59,500 bases of DNA from Minisyncoccia bacterium (GTDB taxonomy: Bacteria; Patescibacteriota; Minisyncoccia; Phycocordibacterales; Phycocordibacteraceae): NCBI GenBank assembly GCA_049286905.1, contig JBAQEU010000035.1:1-59500 (forward strand). The letters are read 5' to 3'. The number at the start of each line of letters is the position of its first letter. Within the stretch, counting starts at the first letter, position 1. A program made the translations under genes and the position numbers. The notes beneath the pieces were generated by a model that was not told the DNA's origin, did not search any database, and saw nothing but the letters and a program-made list of their open reading frames with translations. Of this stretch, positions 35,381 through 38,773 are shown piece after piece.

Positions 35381-38300
35381 TTATACCACAAGATTCAGAA
35401 TCTTGCCCGGTACGTAGATGACCCGTTTTGGCTCATTCCCGCCCATGGCCGCAACGACAGCCGAGAGCGCCCGCGCCGCCGTGATAGCCGTCTCTTCTGA
35501 GGCATCGACTGGAATCGTAATCGACCCGCGGCGCTTGCCGTTCACTTGTACCGTAACTTCTTGCTCAGCAGAAACCACGAACACGGTCTCCGGCCAGGAC
35601 TGTGCGTGCACACTTCCCTCTCCGCCGAGCTTCTCCCAGAGGTGCTCGGCCAGGTGCGGTGCAAACGGTGCAAGCATAATGACAAGAGACGAGAGCGCCT
35701 GAAGAGACACTTCTTCTGCGGCCTCGAGATCGTTCATAAGTATCATGAGTGCCGCCACTCCGGTGTTGAACTTGAACCGGTCGCCATCCTCGGCTATCTT
35801 CGCGCTCGCCCGAGCGATGGATTGCTGTATCTTCTCTGACACTCCATTTGATGGTTCGAGCGCTACATTCGCGGAATGCTTCGTAGCGAGGCGAGAGACG
35901 CGGTCGAGGAACTTATACATCGAGGCGACGCCGTCGAGATTCCACGGATAGCTTCCCGGCTCGTTATAGGGGCCGATGAAGGCCAGATAGAGACGCACCG
36001 CATCGGCACCGTATTTCTGCACGAACTCGTCGGGATTCACGACATTCCCCTTCGACTTGCTCATCTTCGTGCCGTCAGGACCCATGATGAGACCGCGGTT
36101 GAAGCGCTCAGTGAACGGCTCGTCTACCGGCACGAGCGCGAGGTCGTAGAGCGCTTTCATGAAGAATCGCGCATAGAGGAGGTGCATGGTCGTGTGCTCG
36201 CTCCCGCCCGAGTAACGGTTAATCGGCAACCACTTCTTCATGAGCGCCGCATCGGAGAACTTATGTGCGTCCTTCGGATCGAGGTAGCGGAGGAAGTACC
36301 ACGATGAATCAACAAACGTGTCGAACGTATCGTATTCCGGCGTCCAACCCTCGCCAAAGATACGCGTTACACGCTCGCGAAGCTCTTCAGAGGACGCGAG
36401 CGGTGCCTTCCCTGTCGGAGTGAAGTCAACATCGGTCGGCAAGACCCACGGCAAGTGTTCCGCAGGAACCGTATGCGGATGCCCTTCTGGGTCGTACACA
36501 ATCGGTATCGGGCAACCCCAATACCGCTGGCGGCTTATGAGCCAATCGCGGATGCGATACTGCGTCGTCTTCTCACCACCCACGCTTGCGACGATGTCCC
36601 ACTTCGCCTCAAGATTTCCTCTGCCGGTAAACTCACCTGAGTTCGCAAGGACTCCATCACCTGTGTAGATATCGTTTTCAAACAGCGCGACGACTGTCTG
36701 GTGGGATAGAGGGGTCAGGAACTTCTTGAGTTCGGCGAGCGAGAGCCACTTGAGCACATGCTTCTTCTCCTCGTCTGGAGCGACCTCAGTATGATCGCCA
36801 TCCTGAAGCTCCACATAGAAGGCCGGCGCATGCCCGAAGCGATTAGCGTTTTTCGGTACATGAAAATATTTCCCGTGCACGGAACCGAGTGACCTCACGA
36901 TACGCGCATGAGTGTATCCGGTCTCTTCGGTAATCTCCTTCAGAGCGGTCGCCTCAGGAGTCATCCCCTCGTCGATACTCCCGGTGAGCAGCGTTCCCCA
37001 ATCAGGAGCATCATTCCACCCGAGCGCCAGATATTTCTCTTCTGACCAGTGCTTGAGAAGGACTATCACGCCACTATGATCGACATAGGGCTCGTCCGCC
37101 TTGAAAGCGGATGAACCGACAGTCTGTACGAGAGAAGGCTCGATGACTCGCCGGATAGGAAGATTATATTTCCTCGCGAACTCATAGTCGCGCTCGTCGT
37201 GCGCAGGGACAGCCATGAGCGAGCCGGTGCCGTACGAAGCGAGGACGAAGTCGGCGACGAAAGCGGGTATCTCTTCTTTGGTCGCAGGGTTCACCACCCT
37301 GACACCATCAAGCTTCACGCCGGTCTTCTCTTTGTTCTCGCTGCGCTCACGTTCGGTCTTCTTGGTCGTCGCAGTGATATAGTCCTGCACTTCTTTCTTA
37401 TTTGAAACAGAGTCGAGGAGTACCGCGACAAGCGGGTGCTCCGGTGCGAGGACTACGCAAGTCGCACCAAAGACCGTATCAGGTCGCGTGGTAAAGACTT
37501 TTACTTTCTCGTCGTGACCAGAGATAGACATGTCGAGATTCTCCAAAACGTCAGGTTCTTCTTTCCCGGTATAATGTTCTCTCTTGGATGTTCCTGTGAC
37601 AAGTCTGGCGTCGAGGTTCGCGGCCATCTTTTCCAAGTAGACAATCCGACTCTCCTCCTTGAGATCTGAAAGTATGAGACGTTTAGATGCCAGCTTTCTT
37701 AGTGCTTCAAAATCAAATTTCCATGAGAATGTGGTGTGGAAATTTTTATCTTCATCGCTATGCTCTGGATCTTTTGCGGCGGCAACAAGTATAAGTTCGC
37801 GAATAGGCTTACCGTGCTTTATCAGTGCTTTCATCGCCACTATCGCGCCTAGGCTGTGCCCAATGAGGACAGTGTTTTCATCCATTCGACAATTTTCTAG
37901 CACATAGGCGACTTGATCCTTTTCTGTCGGGCTGTTGGTATCCGGCAGTTGTGGTGCCTGTACCTCATATCCTTTGCTCTCCAATATTTCTTTAAGCCAT
38001 GGGATGAAGTTTTTGTCAGCACGGCCAGTCCAGCCATGCAAAATTATGAAGTTAGGTTTTCCTTTTTGCACAATCGGGAACTCGAGGTGCGCGCCTTCGC
38101 TTTTGCCGATCCACGCCCGTTGAGCCTCTTTTATCTCCTCGCGCCACGGGAGCGCGTTCAGTCCATCGAGCAATCGCTCCGCATAGTCAGTAATCTTGAA
38201 GAACCATTGGGTGAGTCGCTTCTCCTCTATCGCCGTGCCGCACCGCTCACAGCAGCCGTCGATGACCTGCTCGTTAGCGAGCACGGTCTGGTCTTTGGGA

Positions 38301-38773
38301 CACCACTTCACTGCCGCCTCGCGGCGCTCGGCGAGCTTGTGCTCGAAGAGCTTCGTGAAGAGCCATTGCGTCCACTGATAGTAGTCGGCATCGCACGCGA
38401 CGACTTCTTTGCTCCAGTCGAATGACGCACCCATGCTCTTCAGCTGGCCGCGCATGCGCTCGATATTCTTATAGGTCCACTCTTTCGGGTCGACGCCGTT
38501 CTTGATAGCCGCGTTCTCAGCTGGAAGACCGAACGCGTCGAACCCTATCGGGAAGAGCACGTTCTTCCCGCGCATGCGGAGCAGACGCGCATAGATGTCG
38601 GTCACCGCAAAGGCGTACCAGTGGCCGATGTGGAGATCGCCGGACGGGTACGGGAACTCGACGAGGAGGTAATACGGGTCTTTCGACTCGTCCGAGAGGT
38701 CTGCGCGGTAGAGATCGAGCCCTGACCACTTCTCCTGAGCCTTCTTCTCTATGTCGCGATGATCGTATGCCAT
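35381..38773 (-). CDS. leuS: leucyl-tRNA synthetase with two large inserted domains (alpha/beta hydrolase-like and Nudix-like)
   Basis: HIGH (DLHIGH), the editing TTRPDT and [13 protein letters not shown] motifs, [12 protein letters not shown], and KMSKS are all present. At 1,130 aa from ATG 38773 it is far longer than typical LeuRS. The extra segments are at about 37514..38071 (ILHGW...GHSLG) and 36674..37138 (Nudix box [23 protein letters not shown]). Confidence 0.93.
   Translation of the reverse strand: [1130 protein letters not shown]

What the first reader, a model, noticed from the sequence alone, without database searches (positions are those of the whole stretch)
35381..38773. LeuRS carries two extra enzyme-like domains (serine hydrolase and Nudix) flanking the CP1 editing domain
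All canonical LeuRS motifs are present in one uninterrupted frame, but two segments have no counterpart in ordinary bacterial LeuRS.

Insertion 1. Between [12 protein letters not shown] and the editing-domain TTRPDT there are about 190 aa (nt ~37514..38071); E. coli has roughly a dozen residues here. The insert reads [12 protein letters not shown]...[11 protein letters not shown]...LILSD...REHY. That is the pattern of YdeN/RBBP9-type alpha/beta serine hydrolases: nucleophile elbow GHSLG (Ser codon 37853..37855) plus candidate Asp and His.

Insertion 2. Between [20 protein letters not shown] and [15 protein letters not shown] there are about 150 aa (nt ~36674..37138). This segment carries a Nudix box G-x5-M-x7-KEITEETGY (36914..36982), with two deviations from the consensus G-x5-E-x7-REUxEExGU.

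Inference: both inserts sit at the hinges of the hydrolytic editing domain. The first could add or replace a deacylase activity. The second could act on adenylated dinucleotides such as Ap4A, which aaRSs are known to make. I do not know of a described LeuRS with this architecture.
Basis: partly seen in the sequence, partly recalled or inferred. Interest (0 to 1): 0.85.

Follow-up and report, generated by a model that had tools for sequence, protein, structure and literature searches.

The report
LeuRS carrying two extra hydrolase domains
The leucine-charging enzyme of this tiny uncultured (CPR) bacterium is complete, but two further intact enzymes, a serine hydrolase and a Nudix pyrophosphatase, are built into its proofreading domain; in this lineage the same enzyme repeatedly picks up, swaps and loses such hydrolase modules, and what they do is unknown.

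Summary
Window 35381..38773 (-) encodes a 1130-aa bacterial-type LeuRS with all catalytic and editing motifs.

Two independently folding domains are nested inside CP1:
- A YdeN/RBBP9-family serine hydrolase, aa 236-416.
- A Nudix domain, aa 546-702.

Both score above Pfam thresholds, give very confident structure models and keep their catalytic residues. Both are under purifying selection (dN/dS 0.02-0.03 and 0.23).

It is not an assembly artefact. The same architecture occurs in independent assemblies at a conserved locus.

- CP1 editing is intact, so the hydrolase does not replace it.
- RBBP9's substrate pocket is not conserved.
- The nearest solved folds to the Nudix include Ap4A hydrolases, but at only about 20% identity.

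The larger finding is that Nudix-in-LeuRS is common in Paceibacteria/Minisyncoccia, while the hydrolase cassette is rare (7 of 185,579 species genomes). Related LeuRSs carry Nudix (up to three copies), YdeN-like, HAD, Ham1/ITPase and DUF559 domains at three or four sites. Near-identical strains differ by presence or absence of both inserts.

The most likely reading is accessory small-molecule hydrolases riding on LeuRS. I found no publication describing this.

The parts
35381..38773 (-). leuS coding sequence, 1130 aa plus stop: a bacterial-type leucyl-tRNA synthetase
   Evidence: NCBIfam TIGR00396 878 bits against cutoff 548. It aligns end to end with T. thermophilus LeuRS 1H3N apart from the two inserts. 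The locus YchF-DUF5671-leuS-sigma70-like-DUF8128-YceG-MnmA is conserved.
38069..38773 (-). N-terminal half of the catalytic (Rossmann) domain with the ZN1 region, aa 1-235. HIGH motif at 38621..38632.
   Evidence: Aligned to Tt LeuRS residues 4-237. HIGH located.
37526..38068 (-). Insert 1 (aa 236-416): a YdeN/RBBP9-family alpha/beta serine hydrolase domain. Oxyanion H246-G247 (38033..38038), nucleophile S307 (37853..37855), acid E373 (37655..37657; D370 at 37664..37666 is the alternative), H400 (37574..37576).
   Evidence: Pfam PF06821 38.5 bits. Profile against PDB: YdeN 1uxo E=1.4e-26, RBBP9 E~2e-20. AF2 model pLDDT 95.8. Foldseek: RBBP9 and YdeN at TM 0.81-0.82, next best about 0.6. H-G, Ser and His are invariant in 16/16. 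hhalign to RBBP9 gives 99.1% probability. dN/dS 0.02-0.03.
37139..37525 (-). Conserved core of the CP1 editing domain (aa 417-545). T-rich motif TTRPDT at 37475..37492; editing-site AHDERD at 37187..37204.
   Evidence: Pfam tRNA-synt_1_2 180.9 bits. Aligned to Tt residues 236-363. Motifs are conserved in all architecture classes.
36668..37138 (-). Insert 2 (aa 546-702): a Nudix hydrolase domain of a LeuRS-centred subfamily. Nudix box at 36914..36982; E613, E616 and E617 at 36923..36937; E668 at 36770..36772.
   Evidence: Pfam NUDIX 46.1 bits. E613, E616, E617, E668, K641 and W676 are invariant in 94-95 of 95 LeuRS-embedded copies. AF2 model pLDDT 95.3. Nudix fold confirmed by Foldseek. Only 264 cluster representatives among 1.84 billion match at E<=1e-3. 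dN/dS 0.23.
35384..36667 (-). End of CP1, second half of the catalytic domain (KMSKS at 36053..36067), anticodon-binding domain and C-terminal domain (aa 703-1130). The leucine-specific domain is absent.
   Evidence: Aligned to Tt 377-592 and 637-876, with nothing matching Tt ~593-636. Pfam Anticodon_1. KMSKS located.

Best explanation
This is the organism's genuine, fully equipped leucyl-tRNA synthetase. The synthetic site, the CP1 editing site, and the anticodon-binding and C-terminal domains are all intact.

Two complete, catalytically competent hydrolase domains are nested in surface loops of the CP1 editing domain:
- A lid-less YdeN/RBBP9-type serine hydrolase, with triad S307-H400-E373 and an HG oxyanion hole.
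- A compact Nudix pyrophosphohydrolase with an intact ExxEE metal-binding and catalytic motif.

They are accessory modules, not replacements for editing. They belong to a lineage-specific system in Paceibacteria/Minisyncoccia. In that system, three or four permissive sites of LeuRS carry interchangeable small-molecule hydrolase cassettes: Nudix (1-3 copies), YdeN-like, HAD, Ham1/ITPase and others. These cassettes are gained, lost and swapped by homologous recombination between leuS alleles. The very conserved flanking sequence could supply the homology for that recombination (inferred).

The most likely mechanism (inferred, not shown) is that each module works as an independent hydrolytic site tethered to LeuRS. 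The Nudix would cleave a nucleoside-diphosphate-X compound. The best guess is dinucleoside polyphosphates such as Ap4A or Ap4N, which synthetases make from the aminoacyl-adenylate, or aberrant NTPs. The serine hydrolase would cleave a carboxylic ester or amide. An alpha-aminoacyl ester, meaning a mischarged tRNA 3' end or a released aminoacyl compound, is the most attractive candidate.

Shown: architecture, family membership, conserved catalytic residues, purifying selection, distribution, and allelic presence/absence.
Inferred: catalytic activity, substrates, and any functional coupling to leucylation.
For: Architecture and membership.

Catalytic residues are conserved across divergent copies. 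For the Nudix, E613/E616/E617/E668 are kept in 94-95 of 95 copies, although the inserts are only about 25-60% identical. For the hydrolase, H-G, Ser and His are kept in 16/16 at 23-87% identity.

Purifying selection is stronger on the hydrolase (dN/dS 0.02-0.03) than on the LeuRS core (~0.10). The Nudix is at 0.23.

CP1, HIGH and KMSKS are intact in every architecture class.

Specificity for LeuRS:
- About 100 of the best 150 representatives of this Nudix subfamily are LeuRS or LeuRS fragments, at three sites and in up to three copies.
- All 7 close hydrolase relatives among 185,579 species genomes sit in leuS at site 1.
- Site-1 and site-3 hydrolases form separate clades with stand-alone proteins between them.

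House-cleaning theme: Ham1, HAD and a MutT-like Nudix occupy the same sites in other LeuRSs. In L002 an insert-free leuS lies in one same-strand array with two Nudix genes, a YfbR-like HD nucleotidase and TatD.

Modularity and recombination:
- One conserved locus holds all four architectures.
- P0003 (both inserts) and P0093 (none) lie in backgrounds with 98-99% identical flanks. The hydrolase is a clean in-frame indel, and there is a divergent tract around the Nudix site.
- Domain and core identities are incongruent.

Chemistry leads: RBBP9 is acylated by single hydrophobic amino acids, including Leu/Ile and Met, and needs a free alpha-amine (PMC8866121). aaRSs make Ap4A/Ap4N, and Nudix enzymes cleave it to ATP + AMP (PMC13627108).
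Against: - No activity has been measured, and no substrate can be assigned from sequence.
- The Nudix has no close characterised relative. PDB profile E-values are only ~1e-7 to 1e-8 and are driven by the Nudix box. Foldseek TM is 0.62-0.70, and no NCBIfam subfamily matches.
- RBBP9's pocket residues are not conserved in the hydrolase, and its alpha-amine anchor E108 aligns with a Lys.
- Near-identical strains live with or without both inserts, so the inserts are dispensable.
- The hosted enzyme families are diverse (Nudix, HAD, Ham1, YdeN, and even a DUF559 endonuclease fold). This fits 'LeuRS is a convenient carrier' at least as well as 'the chemistry serves LeuRS'.
- Stand-alone relatives are mostly not next to leuS.
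- I could not model the full-length protein, so the geometry relative to the editing and synthetic sites is unknown.
Confidence: 0.6

Rival explanations
1. The serine hydrolase is an additional post-transfer (or pre-transfer) editing site that deacylates mischarged tRNA-Leu or aminoacyl-AMP. The Nudix destroys Ap4A or related adenylated dinucleotides made by the LeuRS synthetic site. Both would be functionally dedicated to LeuRS quality control.
For: - Both domains are grafted onto CP1 next to the editing motifs.
- The RBBP9 family handles single hydrophobic aminoacyl groups with a free alpha-amine, and the authors allow ester bonds as substrates.
- Ap4A hydrolases are prominent among the nearest folds.
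- aaRSs make Ap4A.
- This Nudix subfamily is almost exclusive to LeuRS.
- There is very strong purifying selection on the hydrolase.
- An aromatic residue (Y/F) is invariant 16 residues after the Nudix box. From memory, this is a feature of ApnA hydrolases.
Against: - The CP1 editing site is already intact.
- The RBBP9 pocket and its alpha-amine anchor are not conserved.
- Nudix similarity to Ap4A hydrolases is no better than to NudB, MutT1 or RppH.
- HAD and Ham1 domains at the same sites have no obvious role in aminoacylation fidelity.
- Strains without the inserts exist.
- To my knowledge, LeuRS is not a strong Ap4A producer compared with LysRS or PheRS.
Confidence: 0.2
2. Passenger or carrier model. 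The domains are ordinary housekeeping enzymes with no mechanistic link to leucylation. LeuRS is merely a permissive, essential, constitutively expressed carrier. Its conserved sequence around exposed loops makes it a recombination platform for in-frame domain cassettes. In its extreme form, the cassettes spread semi-selfishly.
For: - Many unrelated families occupy the same sites, including DUF559 endonuclease-fold domains.
- Presence/absence polymorphism occurs within one species-level background.
- Domain and core phylogenies are incongruent.
- Hydrolase GC3 is lower than host-gene GC3 in all 10 genes examined.
- Stand-alone relatives sit in unrelated neighbourhoods.
Against: - Purifying selection on the hydrolase (dN/dS 0.02-0.03) is stronger than on LeuRS itself, and catalytic residues are invariant. 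So the domains are useful to the cell, not junk.
- This Nudix subfamily and the close hydrolase family are essentially found only in LeuRS, not in other aaRSs or other carriers.
- There is no transposon-like signature: no target-site duplication and no terminal repeats.
- There are no phage relatives.
- Synonymous divergence of the hydrolase is as old as that of the core.
Confidence: 0.15
3. Non-catalytic role. The Nudix and alpha/beta folds serve as binding or structural modules, for example extra tRNA or partner-protein contacts that compensate for the missing leucine-specific domain.
For: - The leucine-specific domain is absent.
- Two Nudix-box positions deviate from consensus (M604, K612). 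Position 604 varies E/Q/M and position 612 varies R/K/A across the family.
Against: - The metal-binding and catalytic glutamates, the Ser nucleophile, the His and the oxyanion HG are invariant across very divergent copies.
- Insert-free close relatives also lack the leucine-specific domain, so there is nothing to compensate for.
Confidence: 0.04
4. Artefact: a chimeric assembly or misjoin creates an apparent fusion.
For: A GC dip to 0.44-0.45 lies over insert 1, compared with about 0.57-0.59 in the flanks.
Against: - The reading frame is uninterrupted.
- The same architecture is found in independent assemblies and samples: 16 contigs for P0003 and 7 GTDB species.
- The junctions are precise, conserved and in frame.
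- The same GC3 offset is seen in all 10 orthologues.
Confidence: 0.01

Closest known systems
Canonical bacterial LeuRS (T. thermophilus 1H3N/2BYT; E. coli 4AQ7/4ARC)
   Same: Same domain order and motifs: HIGH, KMSKS, CP1 with the T-rich region and the editing Asp, anticodon-binding domain and C-terminal domain. It aligns end to end outside the inserts.
   Different: It has 181 and 157 extra residues nested in CP1 that form two additional enzyme domains. It lacks the leucine-specific domain.
YdeN (B. subtilis, 1UXO) / RBBP9 (human, 2QS9, 7OEX) serine hydrolases, Pfam PF06821
   Same: Same minimal lid-less alpha/beta-hydrolase fold (TM 0.81-0.82), GxSxG nucleophile, catalytic His, and an acid at the RBBP9 D138 column.
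   Different: It is an internal domain of an aaRS, not a stand-alone protein. The acid is Glu rather than Asp. RBBP9's substrate-pocket residues and alpha-amine anchor are not conserved, so the aromatic-aminopeptidase specificity cannot be assumed.
Small Nudix pyrophosphohydrolases: Ap4A/ApnA hydrolases (Aquifex 3I7U, Chlamydia CT771 4MPO, human NUDT2 3U53, Thermus Ndx1), NudB, MutT1, RppH
   Same: Same Nudix alpha/beta/alpha fold with an intact ExxEE catalytic motif. These are the nearest solved structures.
   Different: Identity is at most 21% and TM is 0.62-0.70. The first Glu of the box is Met here and the Arg is Lys. The domain belongs to a small subfamily (264 representatives) found almost only inside LeuRS. 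No curated subfamily model matches.
Nudix-bearing LeuRS of Paceibacteria/Minisyncoccia in public databases (about 940-960 aa, annotated 'class I tRNA ligase family protein')
   Same: Same Nudix insertion at the same CP1 loop. The core is 70-82% identical.
   Different: They lack the hydrolase insert. The double-insert form is rare: 8 of 153 full-length relatives sampled, and 3 of the 7 species genomes that carry the cassette.
Bacterial aaRSs fused to other enzyme domains, e.g. IleRS with a GNAT N-acetyltransferase domain (NCBIfam NF040702)
   Same: A precedent for a bacterial class I synthetase carrying an unrelated enzyme domain. The model appears in the list.
   Different: Different synthetase and a different appended enzyme. 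I did not examine where the GNAT domain sits. Here the additions are internal, nested in the editing domain, multiple and interchangeable.

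Membership tests
Bacterial-type leucyl-tRNA synthetase (NCBIfam TIGR00396 leuS_bact) | Whole-protein score above the curated equivalog cutoff | tested here: met
   878.3 bits against cutoff 548.4.
Bacterial-type leucyl-tRNA synthetase (NCBIfam TIGR00396 leuS_bact) | Class I signature motifs HIGH and KMSKS | tested here: met
   HIGH at aa 48-51 and KMSKS at aa 903-907. Both are conserved across relatives.
Bacterial-type leucyl-tRNA synthetase (NCBIfam TIGR00396 leuS_bact) | CP1 editing domain with the T-rich motif and the conserved editing Asp | tested here: met
   TTRPDT at aa 428-433 and AHDERD at aa 524-529. Pfam tRNA-synt_1_2 180.9 bits.
Bacterial-type leucyl-tRNA synthetase (NCBIfam TIGR00396 leuS_bact) | Leucylation of tRNA-Leu | not testable with these tools
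   This needs biochemistry. The conserved single locus in orthologues argues that it is the housekeeping copy.
Nudix hydrolase superfamily (Pfam PF00293) | Profile score above the gathering threshold, and the Nudix fold | tested here: met
   46.1 bits against 21.1. AF2 model pLDDT 95.3. Foldseek probability is 1.00 to many Nudix structures.
Nudix hydrolase superfamily (Pfam PF00293) | Nudix box GX5EX7REUXEEXGU | tested here: inconclusive
   G598, E613, E616, E617, G619 and Y620 are present, and the ExxEE glutamates are invariant in 94-95 of 95 copies. The first E is M604 (family: E46/Q21/M13) and the R is K612 (family: R48/K28/A17).
Asymmetric Ap4A (ApnA) Nudix hydrolases | Specific similarity to characterised Ap4A hydrolases beyond the generic Nudix box | tested here: inconclusive
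   Ap4A hydrolases are among the top folds, but TM is 0.62-0.70 at 15-20% identity, no better than NudB or MutT1. No NCBIfam equivalog reaches its cutoff.
YdeN/RBBP9 serine hydrolases (Pfam PF06821) | Profile score above the gathering threshold, and a family-specific fold match | tested here: met
   38.5 bits against 22. Profile against 1uxo E=1.4e-26. TM 0.81-0.82 to RBBP9 and YdeN, against about 0.6 for other alpha/beta hydrolases.
YdeN/RBBP9 serine hydrolases (Pfam PF06821) | Ser-acid-His catalytic triad | tested here: met
   S307 and H400 are invariant in 16/16. E373 aligns with RBBP9 D138, and that column is acidic in the consensus.
RBBP9-type aromatic/hydrophobic aminopeptidase specificity | Substrate-pocket residues Y99, L103, F140 and L141, and the alpha-amine anchor E108 (PMC8866121) | tested here: not met
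   hhalign pairs these with Ala, His, Ser/gap and Lys respectively. This is a loop region, so the alignment is less certain.
Known aaRS editing/deacylase domains (CP1, INS/YbaK, AlaX, DTD) | Homology of insert 1 to one of these families | tested here: not met
   Pfam and NCBIfam scans of the protein and of the insert alone give only alpha/beta-hydrolase families.
Intein or transposon-type mobile insertion | Hint/splicing domain, target-site duplication or terminal repeats at the junctions | tested here: not met
   No Hint-family hit. A clean in-frame junction without duplication. No repeats around insert 1. The single 14-nt inverted repeat around insert 2 is not conserved in orthologues.
Anti-phage defence proteins (PADLOC) | Match of either insert to a defence-system model | tested here: not met
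   No hit at E<=0.01.

The most novel reading that the evidence does not exclude
In Paceibacteria/Minisyncoccia, LeuRS has become a modular platform. Conserved sequence around three or four exposed loops lets whole hydrolase domains be exchanged between alleles. On this reading the domains give the synthetase extra catalytic sites that act on its own substrates and by-products. The YdeN/RBBP9-type module would be a previously unknown class of aminoacyl-ester (tRNA or adenylate) proofreading domain. The Nudix, Ham1 and HAD modules would form a built-in nucleotide-sanitising or Ap4N-clearing unit. That would make this a four-active-site aminoacyl-tRNA synthetase.
Probability: 0.2. Interest if true: 0.9.

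Novelty: new variant of a known kind. Interest (0 to 1): 0.72.

Why it matters
Domain accretion on aminoacyl-tRNA synthetases is regarded mainly as a eukaryotic phenomenon. Internal insertion of complete, active-looking enzymes into the editing domain of a bacterial synthetase is unusual.

What this lineage offers:
- It shows the phenomenon repeatedly: several enzyme superfamilies, several sites, up to three copies, and strain-level presence/absence. That makes it a natural experiment in how multidomain enzymes are assembled.
- It gives a direct route to two orphan problems: the substrate of YdeN-type hydrolases and that of a LeuRS-restricted Nudix subfamily.

If the modules act on aminoacyl esters or adenylated by-products, they would be new proofreading or house-cleaning sites on a synthetase.

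There is also a practical consequence. NCBI names this essential LeuRS 'alpha/beta fold hydrolase' and names its relatives 'class I tRNA ligase family protein'. Automated reconstructions of these genomes can therefore appear to lack leuS.

Tried and rejected
1. Stand-alone origin of the hydrolase. The single-sequence word-index search gave one hit, P0121. It turned out to be a fragment of a split LeuRS.

2. Gene-neighbourhood linkage. One stand-alone Nudix of the subfamily lies 2.4 kb upstream of an insert-free leuS. The Nudix gene directly abutting that leuS is only a generic Nudix (13.8 bits to my profile). Other stand-alone Nudix and YdeN-like genes are in unrelated contexts. So there is no consistent linkage.

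3. Recent horizontal transfer of the hydrolase among P0001, P0003 and P0004. I first suspected this because the hydrolase is more conserved (82-91%) than the core (~79%) and has low GC. I rejected it because synonymous sites are as saturated as in the core (dS >= 1.5). The conservation reflects constraint. The GC3 deficit appears in all 10 hosts whatever their GC, so it is systematic and not proof of recent import.

4. Transposon or intein mechanism: no target-site duplication, terminal repeats or Hint domain. A 14-nt inverted repeat bracketing the Nudix insert is chance, with at most 9/14 complementarity in orthologues.

5. Phage origin: only a 26% match to a phage ydeN, and none for the Nudix.

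6. Defence-system membership: no PADLOC hit.

7. Subfamily assignment by NCBIfam: every hit is far below its cutoff.

8. A profile scan of genome contigs with alignment A2 failed because no stretch was conserved enough. It was redone with the single sequence.

9. GGA codon reassignment as an explanation for the odd tRNA(UCC): rejected.

10. A full-length structure model was not possible.

Full report
**1. What is in the sequence**

The minus strand carries one uninterrupted ORF. The mechanical ORF is 35381..38848. The true start is the ATG at 38773. Orthologues begin with the same MAYDHR(D/E)IEKK, and residue 3 aligns with residue 4 of Thermus thermophilus LeuRS. The 1130-aa product is unambiguously a bacterial-type LeuRS:
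- NCBIfam leuS_bact scores 878 bits against a cutoff of 548.
- HIGH is at aa 48-51 and KMSKS at aa 903-907.
- The CP1 T-rich motif TTRPDT is at aa 428-433, and the editing-site AHDERD is at aa 524-529.
- An anticodon-binding domain and a C-terminal domain align to the last residue of the Thermus enzyme.

The leucine-specific domain (Thermus ~593-636) is missing. It is also missing in insert-free close relatives.

**2. The two inserts are real domains**

Boundaries come from the alignment to 1H3N:
- Insert 1 is aa 236-416 (nt 37526..38068). Thermus has nothing there.
- Insert 2 is aa 546-702 (nt 36668..37138). Thermus has 13 residues there.

Pfam finds Ser_hydrolase PF06821 (38.5 bits, cutoff 22) in insert 1 and NUDIX (46.1 bits, cutoff 21.1) in insert 2.

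Both inserts lie inside CP1, not at its hinges. Insert 1 splits the beta-hairpin just before the T-rich motif. Insert 2 begins 16 residues after the editing Asp.

**3. Insert 1 is a YdeN/RBBP9-family serine hydrolase**

- A profile of 16 LeuRS-embedded copies hits B. subtilis YdeN (1uxo, E=1.4e-26) and human RBBP9 (E~2e-20). Other alpha/beta hydrolases follow only at E>=4e-7.
- The AlphaFold model is very confident (pLDDT 95.8, pTM 0.93).
- The model matches RBBP9 and YdeN at TM 0.81-0.82. The next-best structures reach about 0.6.
- The oxyanion H-G, the GxSxG serine (S307) and the histidine (H400) are invariant in 16/16 copies that are only 23-87% identical.
- hhalign to RBBP9 gives 99.1% probability.
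- RBBP9's pocket residues (Y99, L103, F140, L141) and its alpha-amine anchor E108 are not conserved.

RBBP9 itself forms acyl-enzymes with single hydrophobic amino acids (Leu/Ile, Met, Phe, Tyr, Trp). It requires a free alpha-amine, and its authors allow amide, ester or thioester substrates (PMC8866121). That is the chemistry a deacylase would need. Because the pocket differs, it is a lead and not a result.

**4. Insert 2 is a Nudix domain of a small, LeuRS-centred subfamily**

- The model is confident (pLDDT 95.3) and has the Nudix fold.
- Its nearest solved neighbours include several dinucleoside-polyphosphate hydrolases: Aquifex Ap4A hydrolase, Chlamydia CT771, the lupin and human Ap4A hydrolases, Thermus Ndx1 and M. 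tuberculosis Rv2985.
- NudB, MutT1 and RppH score equally well. All are at TM 0.62-0.70 and no more than 21% identity.
- Sequence-level PDB matches are weak and driven by the Nudix box. No NCBIfam subfamily comes near its cutoff.
- Across 95 LeuRS-embedded copies, E613, E616, E617, E668, K641 and W676 are invariant in 94-95.
- An exhaustive phmmer search of 1.84 billion cluster representatives finds only 264 relatives at E<=1e-3.
- About 100 of the best 150 are LeuRS or LeuRS fragments, about 45 are stand-alone proteins of 110-230 aa, and almost none are other long proteins.

**5. Selection**

- dN/dS is 0.02-0.03 for the hydrolase (P0001, P0003, P0004).
- dN/dS is about 0.10 for the LeuRS core.
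- dN/dS is 0.23 for the Nudix (P0001 against P0006).

The LeuRS catalytic and editing motifs are retained in hydrolase-bearing, Nudix-only and insert-free enzymes alike. AHDERD is present in 13/13 and TTRPDT in 12/13 of the hydrolase-bearing ones. The hydrolase therefore adds to CP1 editing and does not replace it.

**6. Not an artefact, and a single conserved locus**

The source is a Minisyncoccia (Patescibacteria/CPR) MAG. NCBI names the protein 'alpha/beta fold hydrolase' (MFZ2167812.1). The neighbourhood YchF - DUF5671 - leuS - sigma70-like - DUF8128 - YceG - MnmA is seen in the window. The same neighbourhood surrounds all of these:
- P0003, with both inserts, on 16 contigs of up to 723 kb.
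- P0093, with no insert.
- P0004, with the hydrolase only.
- P0006, with the Nudix only.

These are orthologues at one locus that differ by whole domains.

**7. Distribution**

Among the 120 closest LeuRSs, most carry the Nudix alone (~940-960 aa) and about 25 carry nothing (~790-800 aa). Only a handful carry the hydrolase with or without the Nudix. Close relatives of the hydrolase cassette (49-88% identity) occur in only 7 of 185,579 species-representative genomes. All 7 are CPR MAGs, and all have the cassette inside leuS at site 1. Three have hydrolase plus Nudix and four have the hydrolase only.

**8. LeuRS as a scaffold**

Architectures found among relatives:
- Nudix after CP1 (site 2; 164 copies in my sample).
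- Nudix before CP1 (site 1; 17 copies).
- Nudix inside the second catalytic half (site 3; 6 copies).
- Two or three Nudix domains in one LeuRS (P0122, P0124, P0126, P0061).
- Nudix plus hydrolase before CP1 together with a Nudix after it (P0125, P0131).
- YdeN-like hydrolases at site 3 (P0164, P0171, P0249, P0269).

Site-1 and site-3 hydrolases form separate clades, with stand-alone YdeN-like proteins between them. This is a crude NJ tree, but it suggests at least two captures. Nudix copies at sites 1 and 3 usually have their nearest relative in a site-2 Nudix of a different LeuRS, and stand-alone members interleave with embedded ones.

Other LeuRSs of the lineage carry further families at the same sites:
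- Ham1/ITPase: P0181 (E=3e-58) and P0263.
- HAD phosphatases: P0250 at site 1, and P0243 and P0175 at site 3.
- A canonical MutT-like Nudix (P0163).
- A divergent GHSLG hydrolase (P0189).
- DUF559 endonuclease-fold domains (P0209, P0251).
- Several domains with no Pfam match.

Nudix, Ham1 and HAD are the classic nucleotide 'house-cleaning' superfamilies (my own knowledge). In L002, an insert-free leuS sits in one same-strand array with two Nudix genes, a YfbR-like HD nucleotidase and TatD.

**9. How the modules move**

- Architectures are interspersed on the core tree, and domain identities are incongruent with core identities. For P0001 against P0003: core 79%, hydrolase 88%, Nudix 33%. For P0001 against P0043: core 71%, hydrolase 38%. 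For P0001 against P0129: core 48%, hydrolase 51%.
- The clearest case is P0003 against P0093. Their flanking genes are 98-99% identical at the nucleotide level.
- In that pair, leuS is 96-97% identical up to codon 235 and 93-94% identical after the hydrolase site. The hydrolase is therefore a clean in-frame presence/absence difference (...ATT GCC | insert | GGN CGN...) with no duplication or terminal repeat.
- In the same pair, the region around the Nudix site (aa ~481-850) drops to 67-90% nt identity. That is a recombination tract.

I conclude that the cassettes are exchanged by homologous recombination between leuS alleles. The direction (gain or loss) is not resolved. The low GC3 of the hydrolase (0.46 against 0.70 here) recurs in all 10 host genes, whatever the host GC. 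It is therefore a systematic property and not proof of recent import.

**10. Interpretation**

Firmly shown:
- A functional-looking LeuRS.
- Two additional intact hydrolase domains under purifying selection.
- A lineage-wide modular system.

Inferred: the domains are active, tethered hydrolytic sites. For substrates I can only rank possibilities.
- For the Nudix, a dinucleoside polyphosphate or an (aberrant) NTP is most likely. aaRSs make Ap4A/Ap4N, and Nudix enzymes cleave it to ATP + AMP (PMC13627108).
- For the hydrolase, an ester or amide, with an alpha-aminoacyl ester as the most interesting candidate.

The diversity of hosted families and the existence of insert-free strains weaken the idea that the chemistry is dedicated to leucylation. 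The near-exclusive association of these particular subfamilies with LeuRS, and the repeated independent insertions, weaken the pure-passenger idea. I therefore rank 'accessory house-cleaning/quality-control hydrolases coupled to LeuRS' first (0.6).

**11. Novelty**

Full-text searches found no description of a LeuRS with embedded Nudix, alpha/beta-hydrolase, HAD or Ham1 domains. The proteins are in public databases, but they are generically named or mis-named. This is a new variant of a known kind, an aaRS with accreted domains. It is unusual in being bacterial, internal to the editing domain, multi-family and polymorphic.

**12. Limits**

- No activity data.
- No full-length structure, so no geometry.
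- The trees are NJ on highly conserved cores.
- The word-index protein searches appear to have under-sampled long proteins.
- I saw only 59.5 kb of this genome, so I cannot exclude a second leuS or list its other Nudix and hydrolase genes.

Noticed in passing
window 12499..12585 (+); also L021-L024 and L026: A tRNA that ARAGORN calls Gly(UCC) is 87 nt long and has a class II, tRNA-Leu-like body: discriminator A73, D-arm GGAAUUGGUAGAC, and a 15-nt variable-arm hairpin. The anticodon loop is UUUCCAA. Five metagenome contigs carry the same kind of tRNA, with compensatory changes in all stems. GGA and GGG still encode Gly in leuS. To my knowledge, bacterial LeuRS normally ignores the anticodon, so this could be a Leu-accepting mistranslating tRNA or an oddly shaped tRNA-Gly. 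It is unresolved, and I found no paper on it.
   Followed up: partly
P0209 (aa ~256-445), P0251 (aa ~338-488) and P0167 (aa ~249-372): LeuRS relatives, not in the window: DUF559 (Vsr/restriction-endonuclease fold) domains are inserted in frame at the same LeuRS sites that elsewhere hold the hydrolase or the Nudix. Pfam scores are 93-106 bits. An endonuclease at a polymorphic insertion hot spot raises the possibility of a homing-like contribution to cassette mobility. This was not tested.
   Followed up: partly
P0181 aa 984-1167; P0263 aa ~243-443; P0250 aa 245-416; P0243 aa 640-795; P0175 aa 318-526: Ham1/ITPase and HAD-phosphatase domains are embedded in LeuRS of related CPR lineages, usually together with the Nudix. 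Further inserts of ~115-240 aa have no Pfam match (P0153/P0180/P0181 at site 3, P0235/P0215, P0186, P0115, P0158).
   Followed up: partly
window 35381..38773; NCBI MFZ2167812.1 / MFZ2983505.1: The LeuRS in this window is annotated 'alpha/beta fold hydrolase'. Nudix-bearing relatives are annotated 'class I tRNA ligase family protein', not leucine--tRNA ligase. This is an annotation pitfall for CPR genome reconstructions.
   Followed up: yes
window 20403..22307 (-): The AlaRS is only 634 aa: the class II catalytic core plus the tRNA_SAD editing module. By length it appears to lack the usual C-terminal region.
   Followed up: no
window 9466..10968 (-): A single 500-aa ORF combines SAICAR synthetase (PurC) and AIR carboxylase (PurE) domains. 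That is a purine-biosynthesis fusion in a lineage usually described as poor in nucleotide synthesis.
   Followed up: no
window 50374..56649 (-): A 2091-aa ORF has NHL, fibronectin-III, Big_3 and purple-acid-phosphatase-N domains. It is probably a giant surface protein.
   Followed up: no
L003 276..896 (-) and 6001..6573 (+): A stand-alone Ser_hydrolase (PF06821, E=2e-16 to my hydrolase profile) and a stand-alone Nudix of the LeuRS-centred subfamily (201 bits) lie within 7 kb of each other and of a ProRS gene on one metagenome contig. This may be coincidence.
   Followed up: partly
window 37526..38068 and orthologues (L005, L008, L014-L020): The hydrolase insert has lower third-position GC than the rest of leuS in all 10 genes examined, with host GC3 ranging from 0.31 to 0.74 and an offset of 0.08-0.24. 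This systematic codon-usage difference within one gene is unexplained.
   Followed up: partly
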